Shown here: positions 420 to 12,558 of the stretch, piece after piece
How positions within the stretch are numbered: the stretch's first letter is position 1
Layout of the letters: the number at the start of each line of letters is the position of its first letter
From: Candidatus Limnocylindria bacterium
GTDB taxonomy: Bacteria > Chloroflexota > Limnocylindria > QHBO01
Length of the DNA: 64,000 nucleotides
Assembly: GCA_036556985.1 (NCBI GenBank)
Contig: DATBIK010000007.1
Coordinates: 4,000 to 67,999, forward strand
Direction of reading: 5' to 3'
The notes under the pieces: generated by a model
Databases searched by the model: none
Seen by the model: the letters and a program-made list of their open reading frames with translations, nothing else
Told to the model about the DNA's origin: nothing
Position numbers and translations under genes: made by a program

Positions 420-1490
420 TCAGGCCGGCGCTGCCGGCAGCCGGAACCAGATGGAGGTGCGCCCGTCGGCTGAGGCCGCGCCGACCTGGCCGCCGTGGGC
501 CTCCACGATCTGGCGCACGATCGCCAGGCCGATCCCCGCGCCGCCGCTGACGCGGGCCCGCGAGGGGTCGACGCGATGGAGCCGCTCCCAGATGAGCGGC
601 AGCTCGTCGGGCGGGATGTCGGCGCCGGTGTTCTCGACCGCGCAGCGCACCCAGCCGCCCTCCTCGCGGAGTCGGACCACGATCTCGCCGCCATCGTCGG
701 TGTAGCGCGCCGCGTTCTGCATGAGGTTGCTGAGGACCTGGCCGACCGCGTCCGGCTCGGCCAGCAGACGAGGGAGAGACGCGGGATCCTCGACCCGGAT
801 GGCAATTCGCCGGCTGGCAAGCTCCGGGGACTGGATCGCCACGGCCCGCTCGACGAGGGCGGCGAGGTCCACTTCTCCGCGGGCCTGCTCCCGGTGGCCG
901 GCCTCGCCGCGCGCCAGCTGGTCGAGCCCCTCCACCAGCCGCGTGAGCCGGACGATCTCCTCGTGGACGGTGCGGAGCATCTCCGGCGTGGGCTCGACCA
1001 CGCCATCGGCCATCGCTTCCAGGTAGCCCTGGAGCGAGGTGAGCGGCGTGCGCAGCTCGTGCGCCACGTCCTCGACGAGGGCGCGGCGCAGCTCCTCGAC
1101 ACGCTGCAGCGTGGCGGCCATGGCGTTGAAGGCATCGGTCAGGCGCTGGAGCTCGGGATCGGGGGCGGCCGGGACACGGGCGGCGAGGTCGCCGCTGGCG
1201 ATGGCGCGCGAGGCATCGGCCATGCGGTCGAGCGGGCGGAGGATCCGGCGCAGGAGCCACCAGGCGGCCAGTCCGCCGAGGACGACCCCCACCCCCGCGC
1301 CGAGAAGCAGGACCTGGCCGACGTACTCGTCGAACATCGCCTGGGCCTCCGCCTCGGAGGCGCCGGCCTCCATGGCGAGGTGCATGATCTGCGCCGATCC
1401 GAAGCGGTGCACGGCGAGGATCATGACGCCGGCAACCACGAGGGCCATGAGCGCCCACAGGCCGATGAGACGGACCCGGAGCGTGGGCAT
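420..1490 (-). CDS. sensor histidine kinase (HAMP-HisKA-HATPase)
   Basis: TM-HAMP region, H-box HELRTPLTSLQGY, N/G boxes (NLMQNA, GGAGIGLAIV); probable start MPTLRVRL at 1490, 13 nt after the upstream regulator. Confidence 0.85.
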   Translation of the reverse strand: MPTLRVRLIGLWALMALVVAGVMILAVHRFGSAQIMHLAMEAGASEAEAQAMFDEYVGQVLLLGAGVGVVLGGLAAWWLLRRILRPLDRMADASRAIASGDLAARVPAAPDPELQRLTDAFNAMAATLQRVEELRRALVEDVAHELRTPLTSLQGYLEAMADGVVEPTPEMLRTVHEEIVRLTRLVEGLDQLARGEAGHREQARGEVDLAALVERAVAIQSPELASRRIAIRVEDPASLPRLLAEPDAVGQVLSNLMQNAARYTDDGGEIVVRLREEGGWVRCAVENTGADIPPDELPLIWERLHRVDPSRARVSGGAGIGLAIVRQIVEAHGGQVGAASADGRTSIWFRLPAAPA

Positions 1491-1503
1491 CGCGGCGCTC
1501 CGG

Positions 1504-2220
1504 TTAGCCTGCCGGGGCGGGCTCGCGGCGCTCGACCGGCGCAACGAACTTGTAGCCGACGGTGCGCACCGTGGCGATCCAGCGGGGAGCGGCGGCATCG
1601 TCACCCAGCTTCCGGCGCAGCCGCCCGAGGTGGACGTCGATCGTCCGGTCGATGATCCCCGGGTCGTCCATGCCGTGGATCGCGTCGATGAGGTCGTCGC
1701 GGGTGAAGACCCGGCCGGGGCGCTGCATGAGGCCGCGCAGGATGCGGAACTCGAACGGCGTGAGATCGAGCGAGCGTCCGTCGAGGCGCGCCTCGACCGC
1801 GTTCGGGTCGACTTCGAGCGAGCCGGCGACCAGGATCGGCTCCTCGCGGTCCTCCTCGAGCCGCCGCCGGCGGAGGAGCGCCCGCACCCGGGCCATGAGC
1901 TCGCGGGGGCTGAATGGCTTCACGACGTAGTCGTCGGCGCCCATGTCCAGGCCGATGACCTTGTCGCCCTCGCCGCTCCGCGCGGTGAGCAGCAGGATCG
2001 GCACGTCCGAGTCGTCGCGGATGCGGCGGCAGACCTCGAAGCCGTCGAGGCCGGGGAGCATGACGTCGAGGAGGACGAGGTCCGGCCGCTGGCGGAGCGC
2101 GGCGTCCAGGGCGGCCTCGCCATCGGCCGCGAACAGCGCCCGGTGTCCCTCGCGCTCGACGTACACGCGCAGGAGGTCGCGAATCTTCGCGTCGTCGTCG
2201 ACGAGGAGGACCGTGGCCAT
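1504..2220 (-). CDS. OmpR-family response regulator
   Basis: MATVLLVDDD receiver with phospho-acceptor D and winged-helix C-terminus (TVRTVGYKF); ATG at 2220 chosen over the upstream extended ORF. Confidence 0.9.
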   Translation of the reverse strand: MATVLLVDDDAKIRDLLRVYVEREGHRALFAADGEAALDAALRQRPDLVLLDVMLPGLDGFEVCRRIRDDSDVPILLLTARSGEGDKVIGLDMGADDYVVKPFSPRELMARVRALLRRRRLEEDREEPILVAGSLEVDPNAVEARLDGRSLDLTPFEFRILRGLMQRPGRVFTRDDLIDAIHGMDDPGIIDRTIDVHLGRLRRKLGDDAAAPRWIATVRTVGYKFVAPVERREPAPAG

Positions 2221-2387
2221 GGCCCGCACAGTATGTCTTCCGCGTGAAGGACCGATGAAGTGGGCGTTCGGTGCTGCGCGGGGCTCACCGAACGCAACCG
2301 CAGCGCTGGGAGGGCCGGCCGGCATGCTCTGAGCGGTCGCATCGGCAGGGGACACCCGAGCGCCGATCCACGTAACATTGGCCGCCC

Positions 2388-2690
2388 ATGACACGCGACC
2401 GGGCAGCGGGGGCCATCGGGTTCGGCTCCGGCACCTCCGACGACCACAAGGACGGCATCCGCTGGGTTGACTACGCCAACATCAGCTGGAACCCGGTCTT
2501 CTGCAAGCGCTGCGACATCTGTGTCGAGATCTGCCCCAAGGACACGCTCGTCCTGCGCAACGACGCGATCATCGAAGAGGAGAACTGCATCCTCTGCGGC
2601 CTGTGCGAGCGGTACTGCCCCGACCTGGCGATCGAGATGATCCCGTCGGCCGTCGCCGCCCACGAGGCGCGAAAGGGAGACGCCGGGTGA
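2388..2690 (+). CDS. 2-oxoacid:ferredoxin oxidoreductase delta subunit (2x[4Fe-4S] ferredoxin)
   Basis: Two CxxCxxCxxxCP motifs (CKRCDICVEICP, CILCGLCERYCP); stop overlaps next start (GTGA). Confidence 0.8.
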   Translation: MTRDRAAGAIGFGSGTSDDHKDGIRWVDYANISWNPVFCKRCDICVEICPKDTLVLRNDAIIEEENCILCGLCERYCPDLAIEMIPSAVAAHEARKGDAG

Positions 2691-3826
2691 CGCGCCGTCT
2701 GACCCAGGGCAACGAGGCGGTATTCCGCGGGGCGATCGCCGCCGGGGCGACCTACTACGCCGGCTACCCGATCTCGCCGTCCACCGAGATATTGAACGTC
2801 GCCTCCGGCTGGGCCGCCGATCATCCCGAGTTCCGATTCCTCCAGGCGGAGGACGAGATCGCGAGCGCGAACGCGATCATCGGCGCGTCGCTGGCGGGTG
2901 CCAAGGCGTTCACCGCCACGAGCGGGCCGGGGTTCAGCCTCATGCAGGAGGCGGTCGGCTATGCGCAGAAGGTCGGCGTGCCATGCGTCTTCGTCAACGT
3001 CCAGCGGGTCGGGCCCGCCACCGGGATGCCGACCATGCCCGGCCAGGGCGACGTGATGCAGGTGCGCTACGGCAGCACCGGTGACTACACTCCCATCGCC
3101 TTCTACCCGAACGGCGTGGAGGAGGCATTCCGGGTCACGATGCAGGCCTTCAACGCCGCGGAGGAGTCTCTCAGCCCGGTCGTGCTCCTCTCCGACACCT
3201 TCGTCGCGCACCTCAACGAGGTCGTCGACCTGGACGCGCTGGCCGAGGGGATGTCGGTCGTCGAGCGGGCCGTGCCGCCGCTGGGCCAACATGACGCCGG
3301 GAAGCCGCGGTTCTTCGCCGGCGTGCTCATGTACGAGCACGGGCCGAACGCCGGAGAGCCCGCCACCGCCGACGCCGACGAGTACCTGCGCCAGTTCTAC
3401 GCTGCCAAGCAGCGCCACCTCGAGGTTGCGCGGCGCTATGCCCTGTACGAGCACGGCTGGAACGTGGACGCCAGTGTCCTGATCATCGCCTACGGCATCG
3501 TCTCGCGCGTGGCGGCGCCGCTCGCCCCGGACTATGCCCTGTTCCGCCCGATCCGCATCCACCCGGTGCTCGGCGACGAGCTGCGGGCGGTCGCCGACCG
3601 CTACGAGCAGGTTGTCTGCATCGAGGCCAACGACGGGCAGTACGCCGACCTCGCGCAGCTCGCGCTGGGGCGGGAGGTGAAGCGGGTGCCATTGCTCGGC
3701 GGCCGGATCAGCCTCGAGGCGGTGCGCGACGGCCTCGAGCGGGTGCTCGCCGGCGGGTCCGGTGATCCGCCGATCCCGCCCGCGCCGAGCGAGCACCAGC
3801 CGCGATCGCCGCTGGGCGTCGGGTAG
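2687..3826 (+). CDS. 2-oxoacid:ferredoxin oxidoreductase alpha subunit
   Basis: GNEAVFRGAIAAGATYYAGYPISPSTEI...TSGPGFSLMQEAVGYA typical of the POR/KOR alpha N-terminus; GTG start overlapping the delta-subunit stop. Confidence 0.85.
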   Translation: MTRRLTQGNEAVFRGAIAAGATYYAGYPISPSTEILNVASGWAADHPEFRFLQAEDEIASANAIIGASLAGAKAFTATSGPGFSLMQEAVGYAQKVGVPCVFVNVQRVGPATGMPTMPGQGDVMQVRYGSTGDYTPIAFYPNGVEEAFRVTMQAFNAAEESLSPVVLLSDTFVAHLNEVVDLDALAEGMSVVERAVPPLGQHDAGKPRFFAGVLMYEHGPNAGEPATADADEYLRQFYAAKQRHLEVARRYALYEHGWNVDASVLIIAYGIVSRVAAPLAPDYALFRPIRIHPVLGDELRAVADRYEQVVCIEANDGQYADLAQLALGREVKRVPLLGGRISLEAVRDGLERVLAGGSGDPPIPPAPSEHQPRSPLGVG

Positions 3827-3841
3827 CGGAGGCATCGGTCC

Positions 3842-5275
3842 ATGCCCGAGACGACGCTCGCCGAGCTGGGATTCAAGAAGAACCTGAAGCTCGACCTGTT
3901 CCCGACGATCTGGTGCCCGGGCTGCGGCATCGGCACGATCATGATGCAGCTGGCCATGGTGCTCGACGAGATGGCGCTCGACGAGCGAAACACGGTGATC
4001 GTGACCGGCATCGGCTGCACCGGGCGCATGGGCGGCTACATGAAGTACGAGGGCGTCTACACGCTCCACGGCCGGACGCTGCCGGTGGCCGAGGCCATCA
4101 AGACGGTCCGGCCCGAGATGAACGTCATCGTCGTGTCCGGCGACGGAGACACGGCGAGCATCGGTGGCAACCACCTCATCCACGCCATCCGCCGCAACGT
4201 GCCGGTCACGGTCCTCTGCAACAACAACGAGATCTACGGGCTGACCGGCGGCCAGACCGGCCCGACCACGCCAGCGGGCACGAAGACGCTCTCCTCGCCG
4301 GCCGGCAACCCCGGCACCCCGATCAACCTGCAGGGGCTCGTGCGCTCGTCGCAGCACGCGCTCTACGCGAAGACGACGGTCTACCACCAGCAGCACATGC
4401 GCAACGTCGTGCGCGAGGCGATCGAGCACCCCGGTTTCAGCTTCGTCGACATCACCAGCCAGTGCATCGAGAACAACGGGCGGCGCATCGGCTTCGCCAG
4501 CGCGAACGAGATGCTCACCTTCTACCGCAAGACCTACAAGCGGGCGGCGAAGGACGCCGTGCGGCTGAACCCCTTCGAGATCGGCATCCTCTACCCGCAA
4601 GCCGATGGTGCGGCCGATGGCGTCGCGGGGTCCACGAACGGTGACGGCTCCAGCACGACAGCGGCGCCAGAGCGTCCCGAGGAGCTGCCGGCGCAGCCTG
4701 CCGGACCGATGACCTCGGCGGCCGATTCGCCCGGGTCGGCGGGTGCCACCGCCAAGCCGCCCACCGCCGACGACGAGGCCAGGGCCCGCAAGCGCGCCGA
4801 GTCGAAGGAGCGCGCCGCGCTCATGGCGCAGCTGTCGGCCGACGCGAAGATGGCCGTCGCACGGCGGGAGATGACGCTCGTCGACGCGCTGTCCCAGGCG
4901 GGGATCCCGGTCCCCGAGTGGGCGCGCACCGGGGCGAGCGCACCGGCCGGCGCGCCGGTGGCCGCCGGCGAGGTGGAGATCAGCGAGTCCGGACGCGACC
5001 CGCGTACCCAGGACCAGCCCGACGACCTTGCCGCCCAGAAGGCGGAGGCTGTCGCCGAGGAGTCCGGTTCCGCGCAGCCCGCGAGGCCGCTGTCGTCGTC
5101 CGATGCGGCACCTGCCGACCTCGACCCCAAGGAGGCGCGGAAGGCCGATGCCCGGCGCAAGCTGGCGATGATGCAGCGCCTGCCGACCGAAGTGAAGCTG
5201 CGGGTCGCGCGGCGCGAGATCAGCCTGGAGGACGCGCTCCGCGAGGCGGGTGTGGACCCGGAGGCATCGGTCTAG
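3842..5275 (+). CDS. 2-oxoacid:ferredoxin oxidoreductase beta subunit (TPP-binding) with ~220-aa low-complexity C-terminal extension containing two tandem ~45-aa helical repeats
   Basis: WCPGCG, GIGCTG, GDGD...NNxIYGLTGGQ TPP motifs in aa 1-250; aa 255-477 Ala/Asp/Pro-rich with repeats ...MAQLSADAKMAVARREMTLVDALSQAGIPVPE / ...MMQRLPTEVKLRVARREISLEDALREAGVDPE. Confidence 0.85.
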   Translation: MPETTLAELGFKKNLKLDLFPTIWCPGCGIGTIMMQLAMVLDEMALDERNTVIVTGIGCTGRMGGYMKYEGVYTLHGRTLPVAEAIKTVRPEMNVIVVSGDGDTASIGGNHLIHAIRRNVPVTVLCNNNEIYGLTGGQTGPTTPAGTKTLSSPAGNPGTPINLQGLVRSSQHALYAKTTVYHQQHMRNVVREAIEHPGFSFVDITSQCIENNGRRIGFASANEMLTFYRKTYKRAAKDAVRLNPFEIGILYPQADGAADGVAGSTNGDGSSTTAAPERPEELPAQPAGPMTSAADSPGSAGATAKPPTADDEARARKRAESKERAALMAQLSADAKMAVARREMTLVDALSQAGIPVPEWARTGASAPAGAPVAAGEVEISESGRDPRTQDQPDDLAAQKAEAVAEESGSAQPARPLSSSDAAPADLDPKEARKADARRKLAMMQRLPTEVKLRVARREISLEDALREAGVDPEASV

Positions 5276-5277
5276 GC

Positions 5278-5904
5278 ATGGCCACCCGGATCGCGCTCGA
5301 CGGCGTCGGCGGGCAGGGGGTGCGGGTCATCGCCGGCGTCCTGGGCGCGCTGCTGGCTCGCATGGGCAAGCAGGTGACCGTCCTGTACGACTACGACTCG
5401 AGCGTGCGCGGCAGCATGTCAGACGCGTTCGTCATCTTCGACGACGAGCCGATCCTCAACCCGGTTGTCGAGGAGGCGGACATCATGCTGAAGCTGGCGG
5501 ACAAAGGGCACCTGCGCATCCACGGCCGAAAACTCGTGACCGACCTCGGGTTGAACGTGCCGGGGGCCGAGCAGATCCCCTTCGCGTCGCTCGGGTCCGA
5601 GCGGTTCGGCAAGGAGCTGTTCGGCAACATGATCGCGCTCGGGCGCGTGATGCGCCTGGCCGAGATCGAGTTCGACGAGCCGGCGATCCGCGAGTCGCTG
5701 CCGCGTCGCTTCGTGGACGAGAACGTGGCCGCCATCCGCTTCGGCTATGACCTCACGCAGGAGGAGATCGCGCAGCTGGCCGACGCGGCGCCGCCGTCGC
5801 GCTTCGAGATGAACGACGCGGCCACCGCGCCGCACCACCGCGAGACGGGGATCGCCACCGGCGGCCAGATGGCCGTGGCCACCGACCCGGGCGAGACGGG
5901 CTGA
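5278..5904 (+). CDS. 2-oxoacid:ferredoxin oxidoreductase gamma subunit
   Basis: MATRIALDGVGGQGV... PorC/KorC-like; ATG 2 nt after the beta-subunit stop; same frame as the longer table ORF 4918..5904. Confidence 0.8.
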   Translation: MATRIALDGVGGQGVRVIAGVLGALLARMGKQVTVLYDYDSSVRGSMSDAFVIFDDEPILNPVVEEADIMLKLADKGHLRIHGRKLVTDLGLNVPGAEQIPFASLGSERFGKELFGNMIALGRVMRLAEIEFDEPAIRESLPRRFVDENVAAIRFGYDLTQEEIAQLADAAPPSRFEMNDAATAPHHRETGIATGGQMAVATDPGETG

Positions 5905-9147: not shown

Positions 9148-10992
9148 GTGCCGACCGGGGTATCACGAGTTCCTGCACCCAGTACGAGGCCCTGCGTGTC
9201 GCCGTCCACGACGTCAGCCACCAGCGCCACCGGGCCGGAGACGCTCGACGCCGTCGCCGTCCGTCGGCGGCTGCTGCGGGCGTTCACCGCATTGTTCGTC
9301 GGGGTCATGGCCGTCGCCGGCCTGCCGGCGATGCTCTCCGACGTCGACAGCCTGCCGGTCCTCGCCTGGGTCGCGACCCTGGCCGCCTGCGTATCGGTGG
9401 GCATGGCACTTGCCGCGCGGCACGTCCTCGGCCCGATCGAGCGGCTCGTCGCGACCGGCGAGCGTCTGCGGGGCCTCTACCAGGACGCGCGAAACGACTC
9501 ACTGGTCGACCCGCTCACCGGCCTGGGCAACCATCGCGCCTTCCAGGAAGAGCTGCCTCGGCAGCTGGAGGGAGCCCGGGAGCTGGGATACGCGCTCTCC
9601 GTGGCGCTCATCGACGTCGACGACCTGAAACGCACCAACGACGAGCTCGGGCACGCCGCGGGCGACCGACTCCTCGCCGCCATGGGCCGGCTCATCGCCA
9701 CGATGATGCGCTCCGGCGACCGTGGGTTCCGCATCGGCGGCGACGAGTTCGTCGTGCTCATGCCGCGAAGCGGTGCCGATGGTGCCTACGTCAGCGTCCG
9801 GCGCCTGCTGGCGATGGCCCTTGGCGACGAAGGGGCGTCGCACGGGCGACCGTCGTTCTCGTTCTCGGCGGGCATTTCGACCTACCCGGAGCTCTCGCCG
9901 GACGCCACACGGCTGCGCCGCCAGGCCGACACAGCGCTGATGTGGGCGAAGCGGCACGGCCGCACCGATGTGCAGATCTTCGACCCCGATCGGCACGGTG
10001 CGGCGGACGACCATCGGGCGACGCCCGAGCTCGCCGCCGCGGTGGCGGACATTGCCCAGCGGCGCGCGCTCGTCCCCCGCTACCAGCCGATCTTCGACCT
10101 CGCCACCGGCGAGCCGGTCGGCTTCGAGGGACTCGTCCGGCCCGATGAGACTTCGCAGTTCGCCGATGCGGTGAGCCTGTTCGTCGCGGCCGAGGCGACC
10201 GAGCGCACCGTCGAGCTCGACCTCGCCGCGATCGAGGTCGTGGCGGCGGCCGTGGGCGACGCCGTGGCGGGCAGATACCTCAGCCTCAACCTGTCGCCGC
10301 GGACGCTGGAGGCCGGCGCGTTCCGCGCCTCGGACGTGGTCGTGATCCTCAACCGCCATGGGATCGACCCGCATCGGGTCGTCATCGAGCTCACCGAGCG
10401 CGAGGCGATCGAGGACCTGGCGCGGCTGCAGGAGAACCTGGATGCCTGCCGCGCGGCCGGCATGCGGATCGCGGCGGACGACGTCGGCGCCGGAAACGCC
10501 GGGCTCCGTCTCCTGAGCCACATCCAGTTCGACGTCGTGAAGATCGACCTGTCCCTGGTCCAGGGCGGCGTCATGCGCGACGCGGCGCTCGGCGTGCTGC
10601 GCGCGATCCGCGAGCTCGCCGGCCGGACCGGGGCCGTGGTCGTGGCCGAGGGCATCGAAACCCCGGAACAGCTCTCGGTCGTGCGGCGGCTGGGGATCGC
10701 CGCCGGGCAGGGGTACCTCCTCGCCCATCCCGCCGACGAGCCGAAGCTGGATGCTGCCGATCTCGATTCCCTCGAGCACGTCCGGCACGATCAGGAGTGG
10801 GTGGACCCGCGGCTGGTGGCGATCGGCCTGGCCGAGGCACCCGGGGACCGGCCCCCGGACCCGCCGGCGCCCGACAGCGACACCCATGTGCCGGCCCCAC
10901 CCGTGCCTGCACCGGAGGCGACGCGCCCTCCTCGCCGCCGGAAACGGCGAGCGACGCCGTTGCCGGAGGAGGCAGCGCCCGGTGTATCCTGA
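9148..10992 (+). CDS. GGDEF-EAL domain protein (diguanylate cyclase / c-di-GMP phosphodiesterase)
   Basis: RIGGDEFVV intact GGDEF; EAL domain with YQPIFDLATGEPVGFEGLVR (EAL motif reads EGL) and conserved DDVGAG, KIDLS; N-terminal TM helices; Pro-rich tail. Confidence 0.85.
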   Translation: MPTGVSRVPAPSTRPCVSPSTTSATSATGPETLDAVAVRRRLLRAFTALFVGVMAVAGLPAMLSDVDSLPVLAWVATLAACVSVGMALAARHVLGPIERLVATGERLRGLYQDARNDSLVDPLTGLGNHRAFQEELPRQLEGARELGYALSVALIDVDDLKRTNDELGHAAGDRLLAAMGRLIATMMRSGDRGFRIGGDEFVVLMPRSGADGAYVSVRRLLAMALGDEGASHGRPSFSFSAGISTYPELSPDATRLRRQADTALMWAKRHGRTDVQIFDPDRHGAADDHRATPELAAAVADIAQRRALVPRYQPIFDLATGEPVGFEGLVRPDETSQFADAVSLFVAAEATERTVELDLAAIEVVAAAVGDAVAGRYLSLNLSPRTLEAGAFRASDVVVILNRHGIDPHRVVIELTEREAIEDLARLQENLDACRAAGMRIAADDVGAGNAGLRLLSHIQFDVVKIDLSLVQGGVMRDAALGVLRAIRELAGRTGAVVVAEGIETPEQLSVVRRLGIAAGQGYLLAHPADEPKLDAADLDSLEHVRHDQEWVDPRLVAIGLAEAPGDRPPDPPAPDSDTHVPAPPVPAPEATRPPRRRKRRATPLPEEAAPGVS

Positions 10993-11031: not shown

Positions 11032-11277
<246 letters not shown>

Positions 11278-11278
11278 C

Positions 11279-11599
11279 GTGCCCGTCCGACTGATCGCCC
11301 TCTACAACCAGCCCGACGACCCGGCCGCGTTCGACGCGCACTACCGCGACGTGCACGGGCCGATCGTCCGGCGCTACCCGGGCCTGCGCGACCTGCGCCT
11401 GACCCGGACCGATGGGCTCGGCGGCCGCCCGCCGACCTTCTATCTGGTCGCCGAGATGACCTTCGACTCCCGGAAGGACCTTGACGCGGCGATGCGATCC
11501 GACGCGGGCGTCGAGAGCGGGCGCGACCTCCGCAACTTCGCCTCCGCGGGCGTGACACTGCTCGTCGTCGATGACGACGCTGCCGTGCCGGGCGCCTGA
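11279..11599 (+). CDS. EthD-family protein (TIGR02118-like)
   Basis: MPVRLIALYNQPDDPAAFDAHYRDVHGPIVRRYPGLR resembles the EthD domain; GTG start 2 nt after the fdxA stop. Confidence 0.6.
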   Translation: MPVRLIALYNQPDDPAAFDAHYRDVHGPIVRRYPGLRDLRLTRTDGLGGRPPTFYLVAEMTFDSRKDLDAAMRSDAGVESGRDLRNFASAGVTLLVVDDDAAVPGA

Positions 11600-11604
11600 T
11601 CGAC

Positions 11605-12558
11605 ATGCCGGAGCCCGTTGCGCCGCTGCCATCCGAACCGGCCGACCTCGGCTTCAGCCGCGTCCGCTATCAGAAGGATCACGCCACCGCCACCGCCACC
11701 GTGGCGATCGACCGTCCCAGCGTGCTCAATGCCTTCGACTTCGGCACGCTCCGCGAGCTGGCGCGCGCCTTCGAGGACGCGAGCTGGGACGATTCGGTGG
11801 CGGTCGTCGTCGTGACCGGGGCGGGGGACCGCGCCTTCTGCACCGGCGCGGATCTCGACGAGCAGGCCGCGATGGGGGCGCACTCGGGGCAGTACTGGCG
11901 CTGGATGGGTGCCTTCGTCGAGATGCATGACCGGCTGCGGAACATCGGCAAGCCGACGATCGCGCGCATCAACGGGGTCTGCGTTGGCGGCGGGCAGGAG
12001 CTGCAATTGGCCTGCGACCTTTCGGTCATCGTCGACGACACGTACATCCGCCATGTCGGCCCCGAGCACGGATCGGTGCCGGCCGGCGGCGCAACCCAGT
12101 GGCTGCCGCTCGTCGTGGGCGACCGGCGCGCGCGCGAGATCGTCATGCTCTGCGAGCGCATCGCGCCGAGCCAGGCGCTCGAGTGGGGCCTCGTGTCGCG
12201 GGTTGTGCCGCGCGCCGAGCTGGACGCGACGGTATCGGCCATGGCGGAGTCGCTTCGGCGCAAGCTGCCGGAAACGATTCGCTACACGAAGGCACAGCTG
12301 AACTGGTGGCGCGAGATGGTGTGGGCCGGGACCATCACGCATGCCCGTGACTGGCTGGCCGTGCACTCGACCTCCGACGAGACGCGAGAGGCCGTGGCCG
12401 CCTTCCACGACAAGCGCCCGCCGCGATACGACGCCCTGCGCCGCATGGCTCACGACCCGCGGCGCTGTGGGCGGTGCGGCGCGAGCGGGCTCCCCGCCGG
12501 CCACGGCTTCTGCGGGATCTGCGGTTCGCCGCTGACCGATGCCTGGGAGGGCGCATGA
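11605..12558 (+). CDS. enoyl-CoA hydratase/isomerase (crotonase) family protein with C-terminal CxxC...CxxC zinc ribbon
   Basis: Crotonase fold (AFCTGADL, INGVCVGGGQELQLACDL); tail RRCGRCGASGLPAGHGFCGICGSPL. Confidence 0.8.
   Translation: MPEPVAPLPSEPADLGFSRVRYQKDHATATATVAIDRPSVLNAFDFGTLRELARAFEDASWDDSVAVVVVTGAGDRAFCTGADLDEQAAMGAHSGQYWRWMGAFVEMHDRLRNIGKPTIARINGVCVGGGQELQLACDLSVIVDDTYIRHVGPEHGSVPAGGATQWLPLVVGDRRAREIVMLCERIAPSQALEWGLVSRVVPRAELDATVSAMAESLRRKLPETIRYTKAQLNWWREMVWAGTITHARDWLAVHSTSDETREAVAAFHDKRPPRYDALRRMAHDPRRCGRCGASGLPAGHGFCGICGSPLTDAWEGA

What the first reader, a model, noticed from the sequence alone, without database searches (positions are those of the whole stretch)
4598..5272. 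2-oxoacid:ferredoxin oxidoreductase beta subunit carries a ~220-aa C-terminal extension with two tandem helical repeats
The TPP-binding core ends near aa 250. The same ORF continues for ~225 aa of Ala/Asp/Pro/Gly-rich sequence. It contains two clearly related ~45-aa repeats: aa ~312-358 and aa ~430-473 (...AKMAVARREMTLVDALSQAGIPVPE and ...VKLRVARREISLEDALREAGVDPE).

Standard POR/KOR beta subunits end right after the TPP domain. The repeats resemble short helix-extended-helix nucleic-acid- or protein-binding modules (Rho-N / IF2-N / SAP-like). They could tether the enzyme to another complex or to the membrane or nucleoid.
Basis: seen in the sequence. Interest (0 to 1): 0.55.

Follow-up and report, generated by a model that had tools for sequence, protein, structure and literature searches.

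The report
Novel helical tail modules on OorB
The beta subunit of a 2-oxoacid:ferredoxin oxidoreductase in a soil and freshwater Chloroflexota lineage really carries a 225-residue flexible tail with two copies of a small three-helix module of unknown function that matches no described domain.

Summary
ORF 3842-5275 (+) encodes 477 aa. An intact OorB-type TPP/[4Fe-4S] core (aa 1-252) is followed, in frame, by a 225-aa tail.

The tail consists of acidic Ala/Pro-rich linkers predicted to be disordered, plus two related ~49-aa modules (aa 310-358 and 426-474; 41% identity, E=4e-10). AlphaFold predicts each module as a three-helix unit with pLDDT 93-95.

The fusion is not an assembly artefact. Five species-level MAGs and dozens of metagenome contigs have the same single ORF. 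"Stand-alone" tail genes in databases come from frameshifted long-read contigs or contig edges. The tail has GC3 0.89 and dN/dS 0.2-0.33.

All 120 closest beta homologs (84-91% core identity, Ca. Limnocylindria/Chloroflexota) that are complete carry a tail: about 75 have one module and about 31 have two. A profile search of 1.84 billion proteins found the module only in these tails.

There is no Pfam, PDB-sequence or Foldseek match. The Rho-N/SAP/IF2-N idea is not supported.

Function is inferred only. The most likely role is a tethered protein-protein docking arm, analogous in position to D. africanus PFOR domain VII. This is a new variant of a known enzyme and is moderately interesting.

The parts
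3842..5275 (+). Complete beta-subunit gene (477 aa plus stop): OorB-type core fused in frame to the tail
   Evidence: ORF list. The same single ORF occurs in L004-L007, and in L008 as part of a longer stop-free reading frame. GC3 is 0.97 in the core and 0.89 in the tail.
3842..4597 (+). Catalytic core, aa 1-252: TPP-binding domain, GDG...NNN motif (aa 100-129) and four Cys ligands of the proximal [4Fe-4S] cluster (C25, C28, C59, C208)
   Evidence: Pfam PF02775, E=3.9e-30. The alignment to H. pylori OorB 8ys5_C places the four Cys opposite OorB Cys19/22/53/202 (PMC12307629). Foldseek top hit is 8ys5_C at E=2.8e-15.
4598..4768 (+). Linker 1, aa 253-309: acidic Ala/Gly/Ser/Pro-rich tether, predicted disordered. 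It contains a conserved short motif PERPxxLPxQPAGPMxSAxxSPG (aa 276-298, nt 4667-4735).
   Evidence: pLDDT <50 over 247-307. Composition and pI 4.05. Invariant or near-invariant columns L282, P283, P286, R278, P279, Q285, G288, P289, M290.
4769..4915 (+). Module 1, aa 310-358: three-helix mini-domain (helices 309-329, 333-340, 346-352)
   Evidence: Profile hit of 74 bits. AlphaFold pLDDT 93-95. The module alone gives pLDDT 85 with the same three helices.
4913..4945 (+). Conserved motif after module 1: PEW(L/A)RTGASAP (aa 358-368)
   Evidence: Near-invariant columns E359, R362, T363, G364, A365, S366, A367, P368. dN/dS 0.20.
4946..5116 (+). Linker 2, aa 369-425: acidic Ala/Pro-rich tether of very variable length among homologs
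   Evidence: pLDDT mostly <50. pI 4.08. Module-to-module spacing varies from 62 to 137 residues among homologs.
5117..5263 (+). Module 2, aa 426-474: second copy of the three-helix mini-domain (helices 429-445, 449-456, 462-468), at the extreme C-terminus
   Evidence: Profile hit of 81 bits. pLDDT 92-95. BLASTP against module 1 gives E=4e-10.
2388..2690 (+). Delta subunit (2x[4Fe-4S] ferredoxin-like); the start codon is uncertain
   Evidence: Pfam Fer4 families. NCBIfam PorD_KorD/OGOR_delta hits fall below cut-off.
2687..3826 (+). Alpha subunit. A GTG start overlaps the delta stop (GTGA) and is preceded by GGGAG.
   Evidence: Pfam POR_N, E=5.9e-54. Start-codon scan.
5278..5904 (+). Gamma subunit (208 aa). 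It starts 2 nt after the beta stop, and a GGAGG lies inside the last beta codons.
   Evidence: Pfam POR. Sequence.

Best explanation
Shown: this is one translated gene for the beta subunit of a four-subunit, Oor-type (delta-alpha-beta-gamma) 2-oxoacid:ferredoxin oxidoreductase. In Ca. Limnocylindria-type Chloroflexota this subunit has acquired a C-terminal tail. The tail alternates acidic, disordered Ala/Pro-rich tethers with a ~45-49-residue module that matches no described family and is predicted as three helices. Most relatives carry one module at the extreme C-terminus. This window belongs to a subgroup in which an in-frame internal duplication produced two.

Inferred: the modules are protein-protein docking units on flexible arms. 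My preferred version is that they bind back onto the (alpha-beta-gamma-delta)2 complex in trans, across the alpha/beta dimer interface or onto the exposed ferredoxin-like delta subunit. Two other C-terminal add-ons to this same domain extend over the partner subunit: domain VII of D. africanus PFOR and the C-terminal helix of Sulfolobus OFOR beta. Such binding would stabilise the dimer and could shield Fe-S clusters in organisms from soil and oxic lake water. Confidence is about 0.95 for the descriptive part, about 0.6 for a docking arm of some kind, and about 0.35 for the intra-complex clamp specifically. The confidence number given for this explanation (0.4) refers to the whole statement, including the preferred mechanism.
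For: Real gene and fusion:
- Single ORF in the window, in four species-representative MAGs L004-L007, and in L008 as part of a longer stop-free frame.
- Many JGI/NCBI/ENA/Logan proteins carry PF02775 plus the tail.
- GC3 is 0.94-0.98 in the modules. dN/dS is 0.20-0.33 along the tail against 0.15 in the core.

Core intact:
- TPP motif and all four cluster cysteines are present.

Module is a folded unit:
- pLDDT is 93-95 in the full-length model and 85 for the module alone, with three helices in both, flanked by segments with pLDDT <50.
- Conserved hydrophobic positions are M19, L22, L37, A40, V30 and A31. Conserved charged positions, presumed surface-exposed, are R9, E11, K27 and E34.

Distribution:
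- The module occurs only in this tail. A profile search of 1.84e9 representatives gave 34 hits. All 23 whose sequences were read, plus the seven already known from earlier searches, are tails or tail fragments of this protein; the four weakest or repetitive hits (P0247, P0249, P0250, P0252) were not examined.

Copy-number dynamics:
- In 68 of 72 single-module proteins the module looks like the N-half of module 1 joined to the C-half of module 2. Hybrids such as P0141 exist.

Precedent at the same position:
- The StOFOR beta C-terminal helix and DaPFOR domain VII (residues 1171-1232, a domain-swapping extension whose first 14 residues are disordered) extend over the partner subunit (PMC5020499; PMC8945911).
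- In the closest solved enzyme, the dimer interface is formed by OorA and OorB (PMC12307629).
Against: - No binding partner or contact was tested. AlphaFold was run on a monomer only, and coordinates and PAE were not available to me.
- Linkers of 48-75 residues, highly variable in length, are longer than an intra-complex clamp needs. They fit recruitment of a diffusible partner at least as well.
- A second module would need a second site on the complex.
- There is no sequence similarity to DaPFOR domain VII, and the tail has no cysteines, so the disulfide redox switch of that domain cannot apply.
- The aerobic lifestyle of these particular organisms is assumed from habitat, not shown here.
Confidence: 0.4

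Rival explanations
1. Partner recruitment. The tethered modules capture a soluble partner, most plausibly the acidic ferredoxin acceptor or a downstream enzyme, and hold it near the distal cluster. This is functionally like the peripheral-subunit-binding domain on the Ala/Pro-rich linkers of 2-oxoacid dehydrogenase E2 chains. Two modules would give higher avidity.
For: - The tethers are long, variable and disordered.
- The modules are mildly basic (pI 8.9 and 10.0) on acidic linkers.
- A 7Fe-type ferredoxin gene, visibly rich in Asp and Glu, lies 5.8 kb downstream (11032-11277). A Fer4 gene is syntenic downstream in L001-L003.
- Conserved charged residues R9, E11, K27 and E34, presumed surface-exposed.
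Against: - No interaction was tested.
- The net charge of the consensus single module is about zero by my own count.
- No Pfam E3_binding or other docking-domain match.
- Synteny with ferredoxin is loose, with other genes in between.
Confidence: 0.28
2. Self-association. Modules pair with each other (between the two beta tails of a dimer, within one chain in two-module proteins, or between complexes). This would staple the dimer or drive higher-order assemblies.
For: - The two beta subunits sit at the dimer interface (PMC12307629).
- A long first helix with a small hydrophobic patch could pair.
- Copy number switches between 1 and 2.
Against: - No coiled-coil-like amphipathicity: muH is 0.1-0.2 for helix 1.
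- AlphaFold folds a single module confidently on its own.
- No data on oligomeric state.
Confidence: 0.12
3. Nucleic-acid or nucleoid tether through HeH/SAP/Rho-N-like or ribbon-helix-helix-like modules.
For: - The N-terminal half of helix 1 is Arg/Lys-rich.
- Weak sub-threshold hit to 56B_RHH (13.4 bits against a cut-off of 27.2; one homolog carries a precomputed PF21432 hit).
- The weakest Foldseek hits are sigma-factor region 4 helices, at E>3.
Against: - No Rho_N, SAP, IF2_N or HeH hit in 70 modules at E<=10.
- Three helices are predicted, with no N-terminal strand.
- The tail as a whole is acidic, pI 4.7.
- No structural match is significant.
Confidence: 0.05
4. Artefact or separate gene. 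The tail is a mis-assembly or frameshift product, or a separately translated small protein wrongly fused here.
For: - Databases hold many 130-200-aa "stand-alone" tail proteins starting at conserved Met residues.
- On one JGI contig whose DNA could not be read (encoding P0041), a 254-aa gene is followed by a 203-aa tail gene with a 4-nt overlap.
Against: - The stand-alone calls that could be inspected are artefacts. L001 and L002 (ENA long-read-style contigs) have 1-nt frame shifts at different places in linker 1.
- The L003 ORF is open to the contig edge, and P0071 starts 30 nt from a contig end.
- L004-L008 and dozens of short-read contigs have one uninterrupted ORF.
- Coding signal and purifying selection are continuous across the junction.
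- None of the 120 closest beta homologs is a complete protein that ends without a module. The 14 without a match are truncated or frameshifted.
Confidence: 0.03

Closest known systems
Helicobacter pylori OorDABC 2-oxoglutarate:acceptor oxidoreductase, beta subunit OorB (PDB 8ys5 chain C)
   Same: - Same delta-alpha-beta-gamma gene order.
- 38% identity over 227 aligned columns in the Foldseek structural alignment; the sequence alignment covers aa 11-250.
- TPP domain and all four proximal-cluster cysteines are conserved.
   Different: - OorB is 273 aa and ends about 24 residues after the aligned core.
- The window protein continues for about 225 more residues with linkers and two modules.
- All NCBIfam beta, alpha, gamma and delta models score below their curated cut-offs. 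This is a divergent Oor/Kor-like enzyme of unknown substrate.
Domain VII of Desulfovibrio africanus pyruvate:ferredoxin oxidoreductase (residues 1171-1232), and the C-terminal helix of Sulfolobus tokodaii OFOR beta (283b-305b)
   Same: - Lineage-specific add-ons at exactly the same place, the C-terminus of the TPP-binding domain VI/beta.
- Each begins with a flexible stretch and reaches over the partner subunit (PMC5020499; PMC8945911).
   Different: - No sequence similarity: the phmmer alignment to 1b0p_A stops at residue 1094.
- No Cys pair.
- The tail here is 4-10 times longer, repeated, and separated from the core by at least 50 disordered residues.
- Contact with the complex is not shown.
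Peripheral-subunit-binding domain (Pfam E3_binding) of 2-oxoacid dehydrogenase E2 chains
   Same: A very small helical domain flanked by Ala/Pro-rich flexible linkers in a 2-oxoacid-oxidising enzyme. This is an analogy of design only.
   Different: - No profile match.
- Different helix pattern.
- Different enzyme superfamily.
- A docking function is not demonstrated here.
   Same: A short stretch "(L/I)(S/T)LxxALxxAG(I/V/L)" recalls the first helix plus Gly cap of these motifs.
   Different: - No Pfam hit.
- Three helices, with the motif at the end rather than the start of the unit.
- No second helix follows it.

Membership tests
2-oxoacid:ferredoxin oxidoreductase beta subunit (PorB/KorB/OorB) | C-terminal-type TPP-binding domain with GDG...NN motif | tested here: met
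   PF02775 E=3.9e-30 at aa 58-204. GDGD...NNN at aa 100-129.
2-oxoacid:ferredoxin oxidoreductase beta subunit (PorB/KorB/OorB) | Four Cys ligands of the proximal [4Fe-4S] cluster | tested here: met
   C25, C28, C59 and C208 align with OorB Cys19/22/53/202 (ligands named in PMC12307629).
2-oxoacid:ferredoxin oxidoreductase beta subunit (PorB/KorB/OorB) | Encoded with alpha (POR_N), gamma (POR) and delta (2x4Fe-4S) subunits | tested here: met
   Pfam on the neighbouring ORFs. The order delta-alpha-beta-gamma matches oorDABC.
2-oxoacid:ferredoxin oxidoreductase beta subunit (PorB/KorB/OorB) | Score above the curated cut-off of an NCBIfam equivalog or subfamily model (would name the substrate) | tested here: not met
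   Best is TIGR02177 at 206 bits against a cut-off of 261.9. KorB model NF007207 gives 200 against 364. It belongs to the superfamily, but the substrate is unassigned.
HeH motifs: SAP / Rho_N / IF2_N | Match to the family profile | tested here: not met
   None of these families appears among hits of 70 module sequences at E<=10, nor for the whole tail at E<=1. HMMER's filters drop most matches above E of about 0.1.
HeH motifs: SAP / Rho_N / IF2_N | Two helices joined by an extended segment | tested here: not met
   AlphaFold predicts three helices (18-21, 8 and 7 residues) joined by short turns. No significant PDB fold match.
Ribbon-helix-helix (56B_RHH, PF21432) | Profile score above the gathering threshold, and an N-terminal beta-strand | tested here: not met
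   13.4 bits against 27.2. Only 1 of 70 modules hits it, at E=0.024. The preceding segment is predicted helical.
DaPFOR domain VII-type arm | Extension directly after domain VI/beta | tested here: met
   The tail starts at aa 253, right after the OorB-aligned core. Domain boundaries of DaPFOR are given in PMC8945911.
DaPFOR domain VII-type arm | Sequence homology and the Cys1195-Cys1212 pair | tested here: not met
   The alignment to 1b0p_A ends at residue 1094. The tail contains no Cys.
DaPFOR domain VII-type arm | Domain-swapped contact with the partner protomer | not testable with these tools
   Only monomer prediction was available, and no coordinates were returned.
Peripheral-subunit-binding domain (E3_binding) | Profile match | tested here: not met
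   Absent from the hmmscan results.

The most novel reading that the evidence does not exclude
The ~45-residue module is a new docking-domain family. Either it clamps and shields the Fe-S clusters of an Oor-type oxidoreductase, or it recruits the enzyme's electron acceptor. Either role would help explain how abundant soil and freshwater Chloroflexota from oxic habitats can run an enzyme class normally regarded as oxygen-sensitive. Gain and loss of a second copy would tune that function.
Probability: 0.25. Interest if true: 0.65.

Novelty: new variant of a known kind. Interest (0 to 1): 0.42.

Why it matters
2-oxoacid:ferredoxin oxidoreductases are ancient, oxygen-labile enzymes of central carbon metabolism and CO2 fixation. 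How organisms living in oxic habitats keep them working is only partly understood.

The known solutions include the loss of the delta subunit in Sulfolobus. D. africanus PFOR carries a domain-swapped C-terminal arm, which from my own knowledge of the literature has been linked to its oxygen stability. Here a whole, environmentally abundant class of Chloroflexota has a different, conserved and selectively maintained add-on at that same position. It is built from a module family that matches nothing in Pfam, in PDB sequences or, by Foldseek, in PDB structures.

If the module docks on the complex or on a partner, it is a compact new interaction domain and a handle for engineering OFORs. If not, it is still a clean example of domain birth and copy-number change inside a disordered tail.

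It also has a practical consequence. Gene callers and long-read assemblies split this gene, and JGI labels some tail fragments "FliN", which is misleading.

Tried and rejected
1. Separate gene or frameshift. I inspected contigs encoding "stand-alone" tails. L001 and L002 have single-base frame shifts at different linker positions. L003 and the P0071 contig are contig-edge truncations. One JGI contig (P0041) shows a 254-aa gene overlapping a 203-aa tail gene by 4 nt, but its DNA could not be fetched, so this stays unresolved. The sample is also the source of other fragmented calls.

2. Known domain. Pfam on the whole protein, the tail and 70 modules gave only chance-level hits: DUF7931 in 15 of 70 with best E=0.0037, DUF1858/ScdA_N, and Fer2 through the generic "ALxxAGI" motif. 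A PDB sequence search with the module profile gave a best E of 0.56. Foldseek of the module model against the PDB gave a best E of 3.1.

4. Module in other proteins. The HMM search of 1.84e9 representatives found only beta-tail sequences. There is no other copy in the window.

5. DNA-level tandem repeat. There is none; only short chance matches.

6. Literature. No paper links Limnocylindria with ferredoxin oxidoreductases or describes this tail.

7. Considered but not testable here. Encapsulin or microcompartment targeting peptide: the module does not resemble the known short motifs, from my own knowledge. Internal translation start at the conserved Met290: no Shine-Dalgarno sequence is visible upstream in the sequence.

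Full report
**What is there**

The window has about 70% G+C. Nt 2388-5904 carry four co-directional genes:
- a 2x[4Fe-4S] delta subunit (2388-2690);
- an alpha subunit with POR_N (GTG at 2687, overlapping the delta stop; ends at 3826);
- the beta subunit (3842-5275);
- a gamma subunit (5278-5904).

This is the oorDABC order. The beta ORF encodes 477 aa. Pfam sees only the TPP-binding domain at aa 58-204.

The closest solved protein is H. pylori OorB (8ys5_C, 273 aa). It aligns to aa 11-250 at E=5e-51 by sequence and E=2.8e-15 by Foldseek. The four cysteines that hold the proximal cluster in OorB (Cys19/22/53/202; PMC12307629) align with C25, C28, C59 and C208, and the GDG...NNN motif is present. 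The catalytic core therefore looks intact.

All NCBIfam models for the four subunits score below their curated cut-offs. I call it an Oor/Kor-like 2-oxoacid:ferredoxin oxidoreductase of unassigned substrate.

**The tail**

From aa 253 (nt 4598) the same frame runs on for 225 residues. The tail is 23% Ala, 9% Pro, 17% Asp+Glu, has no Cys and has pI 4.7.

BLASTP between the two regions gives 41% identity and 77% positives over 39 residues, E=4e-10. A profile built from the family, which included both window copies, finds aa 310-358 and 426-474 and nothing else in the six-frame translation of the window.

AlphaFold2 on the full-length protein, with a 62-sequence alignment, gave:
- a recognisable core;
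- two islands of very high confidence (pLDDT 93-95), each with three helices (309-329/333-340/346-352 and 429-445/449-456/462-468);
- pLDDT below 50 for the intervening segments.

The module folded alone gives the same three helices at pLDDT 85. The modules are mildly basic (pI 8.9 and 10.0). The linkers are strongly acidic (pI about 4.05-4.1).

**Is it an artefact or a separate gene?**

A search with the tail found 108 proteins. Many are 130-200-aa "stand-alone" proteins starting at Met residues that are conserved inside the tail. I inspected their contigs.
- On two long ENA contigs (L001, L002) the core and the tail are in different frames. The shift lies at different points of linker 1, as expected of indel errors.
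- On L003 the reading frame is open to the first base of the contig.
- The P0071 gene starts 30 nt from a contig end.
- One contig (P0041) could not be read.

In contrast, four species-representative MAGs retrieved from GTDB genomes (L004-L007) have a single ORF from MPE... through both modules to the stop. L008 carries the same continuous frame inside a longer stop-free reading that runs on upstream into the alpha gene. Many short-read contigs also carry PF02775 and the tail in one protein.

Codon-position G+C (GC3 0.94-0.98 in the modules, 0.97 in the core) supports translation of this frame. So does pairwise dN/dS (0.20-0.33 along the tail, 0.15 in the core), which also indicates purifying selection.

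**Distribution and evolution**

The 120 closest beta homologs have 84-91% identity in the core. Where labelled, they are Ca. Limnocylindria, Limnocylindrales or Chloroflexota. All continue beyond the core:
- about 75 have one module at the extreme C-terminus (total length 334-362 aa);
- about 31 have two modules (414-447 aa; 477 aa here);
- the 14 without a recognisable module end at a contig edge inside the tail or run into frame-shifted sequence.

A profile search of 1.84 billion representative proteins returned only 34 hits. All 23 whose sequences I read are tails or fragments of this same protein, as are the seven hits already known from the earlier searches. Four low-ranking hits were not read: two short fragments (P0247, P0249) and two long proteins with 11 short matched stretches each (P0250, P0252). 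The module was seen in no other architecture.

In 68 of 72 single-module proteins, the single module resembles module 1 in its N-terminal half and module 2 in its C-terminal half. Hybrids such as P0141 sit in a linker context typical of two-module proteins. This fits one internal in-frame duplication with breakpoints inside the module, followed by occasional deletion by recombination between the copies. The two DNA copies in the window are too diverged to be detected as repeats.

The linkers also hold short conserved motifs: ERPxxLPxQPAGPM at aa 276-298 and PEWxRTGASAP at aa 358-368.

**Comparison with known domains**

There is no Pfam family for the tail or for any of 70 modules. In particular there is no Rho_N, SAP, IF2_N, HeH or E3_binding hit. 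The only recurring hits are chance-level matches through the generic "ALxxAGI(D/E)P" helix-cap motif.

The module therefore matches nothing in the libraries I could search.

**How it most likely works (inference)**

Four features point to a functional interaction module on an entropic tether:
- a small, confidently predicted domain;
- conserved charged residues (R9, E11, K27, E34 in module numbering), presumed surface-exposed;
- long, acidic, length-variable disordered linkers with embedded conserved short motifs;
- purifying selection.

The only precedents in this enzyme family sit at the same place. The C-terminal helix of Sulfolobus OFOR beta and domain VII of D. africanus PFOR both follow the TPP domain and extend over the partner subunit (PMC5020499). 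PMC8945911 describes domain VII as a domain-swapping extension whose first 14 residues are disordered. In H. pylori OOR the dimer interface is made by OorA and OorB, and OorD carries the exposed medial and distal clusters.

My preferred reading is therefore an intra-complex, in-trans clamp or shield (about 0.35). Recruitment of a soluble partner such as the acidic 7Fe ferredoxin encoded 5.8 kb downstream, which is syntenic in L001-L003, is nearly as likely (about 0.28). It fits the long linkers and the duplication better. Self-association (0.12), nucleic-acid binding (0.05) and artefact (0.03) follow. None of these could be tested with monomer-only structure prediction.

**Verdict**

The fusion is genuine and conserved. 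The module is new to the domain databases and confined to one bacterial class. Its function is unknown and only inferred. This is a new variant of a well-known enzyme. It is of moderate interest, mainly as a candidate adaptation of an oxygen-sensitive enzyme in organisms from oxic habitats and as a clean case of module birth and duplication in a disordered tail.

Noticed in passing
window 5770-5901 (gamma subunit aa ~165-208): The gamma subunit also has a ~45-residue C-terminal tail beyond the region matched by gamma-subunit profiles...LADAAPPSRFEMNDAATAPHHRETGIATGGQMAVATDPGETG. It is almost invariant in the gamma translations of L004, L005, L007 and L008. It could be a second lineage-specific add-on or a partner of the beta modules.
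   Followed up: partly
window 4667-4735 and 4913-4945: Short, nearly invariant linear motifs sit inside the otherwise variable, disordered linkers: ERPxxLPxQPAGPMxSAxxSPG and PEWxRTGASAP. The first is absent from most single-module proteins.
   Followed up: partly
window 11032-11277, 11279-11599, 11605-12558: A 7Fe-type ferredoxin visibly rich in Asp and Glu, an EthD-like ORF and an enoyl-CoA hydratase lie downstream. The same Fer4-EthD-ECH trio, together with a DHDPS-like gene and an adenosine deaminase, is syntenic with the oxidoreductase operon in L001-L003.
   Followed up: no
L001 ~4900-5000 and L002 ~4900-5000: ENA contigs named contig_NNNNN (probably long-read assemblies) carry single-base frame shifts in the G+C-rich linker. 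These split the beta gene into a truncated core and a spurious "stand-alone" tail protein. On L001 the core is not called as a gene at all.
   Followed up: yes
proteins P0002, P0004, P0009, P0011, P0017, P0087: JGI names several tail fragments [quoted passage not shown]. Nothing in the sequence supports this, and no FliN family appeared in the Pfam scans. It is probably a low-complexity mis-annotation.
   Followed up: partly
L006 (DASRYM010000049.1): A contig carrying an operon 75% identical in the tail is labelled Candidatus Zixiibacteriota, whereas all other sources are Chloroflexota or Limnocylindria. Mis-binning or mislabelling is likely.
   Followed up: no
window 5256-5280: The likely ribosome-binding site of the gamma gene (GGAGG) lies inside the last codons of beta (..PEAS..). 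The gamma ATG starts 2 nt after the beta stop. This may explain the semi-conserved DPEAS ending.
   Followed up: no
window 420-1604 (-), 1504-2394 (-), 9148-10992 (+): By eye, the flanking ORFs look like a sensor histidine kinase, an OmpR-type response regulator and a GGDEF/EAL signalling protein. They were not analysed.
   Followed up: no
window 4591-5160 (-): A 189-aa antisense ORF overlaps the tail. It is a typical shadow ORF of 75% G+C DNA. Codon-position G+C supports the + strand frame.
   Followed up: partly
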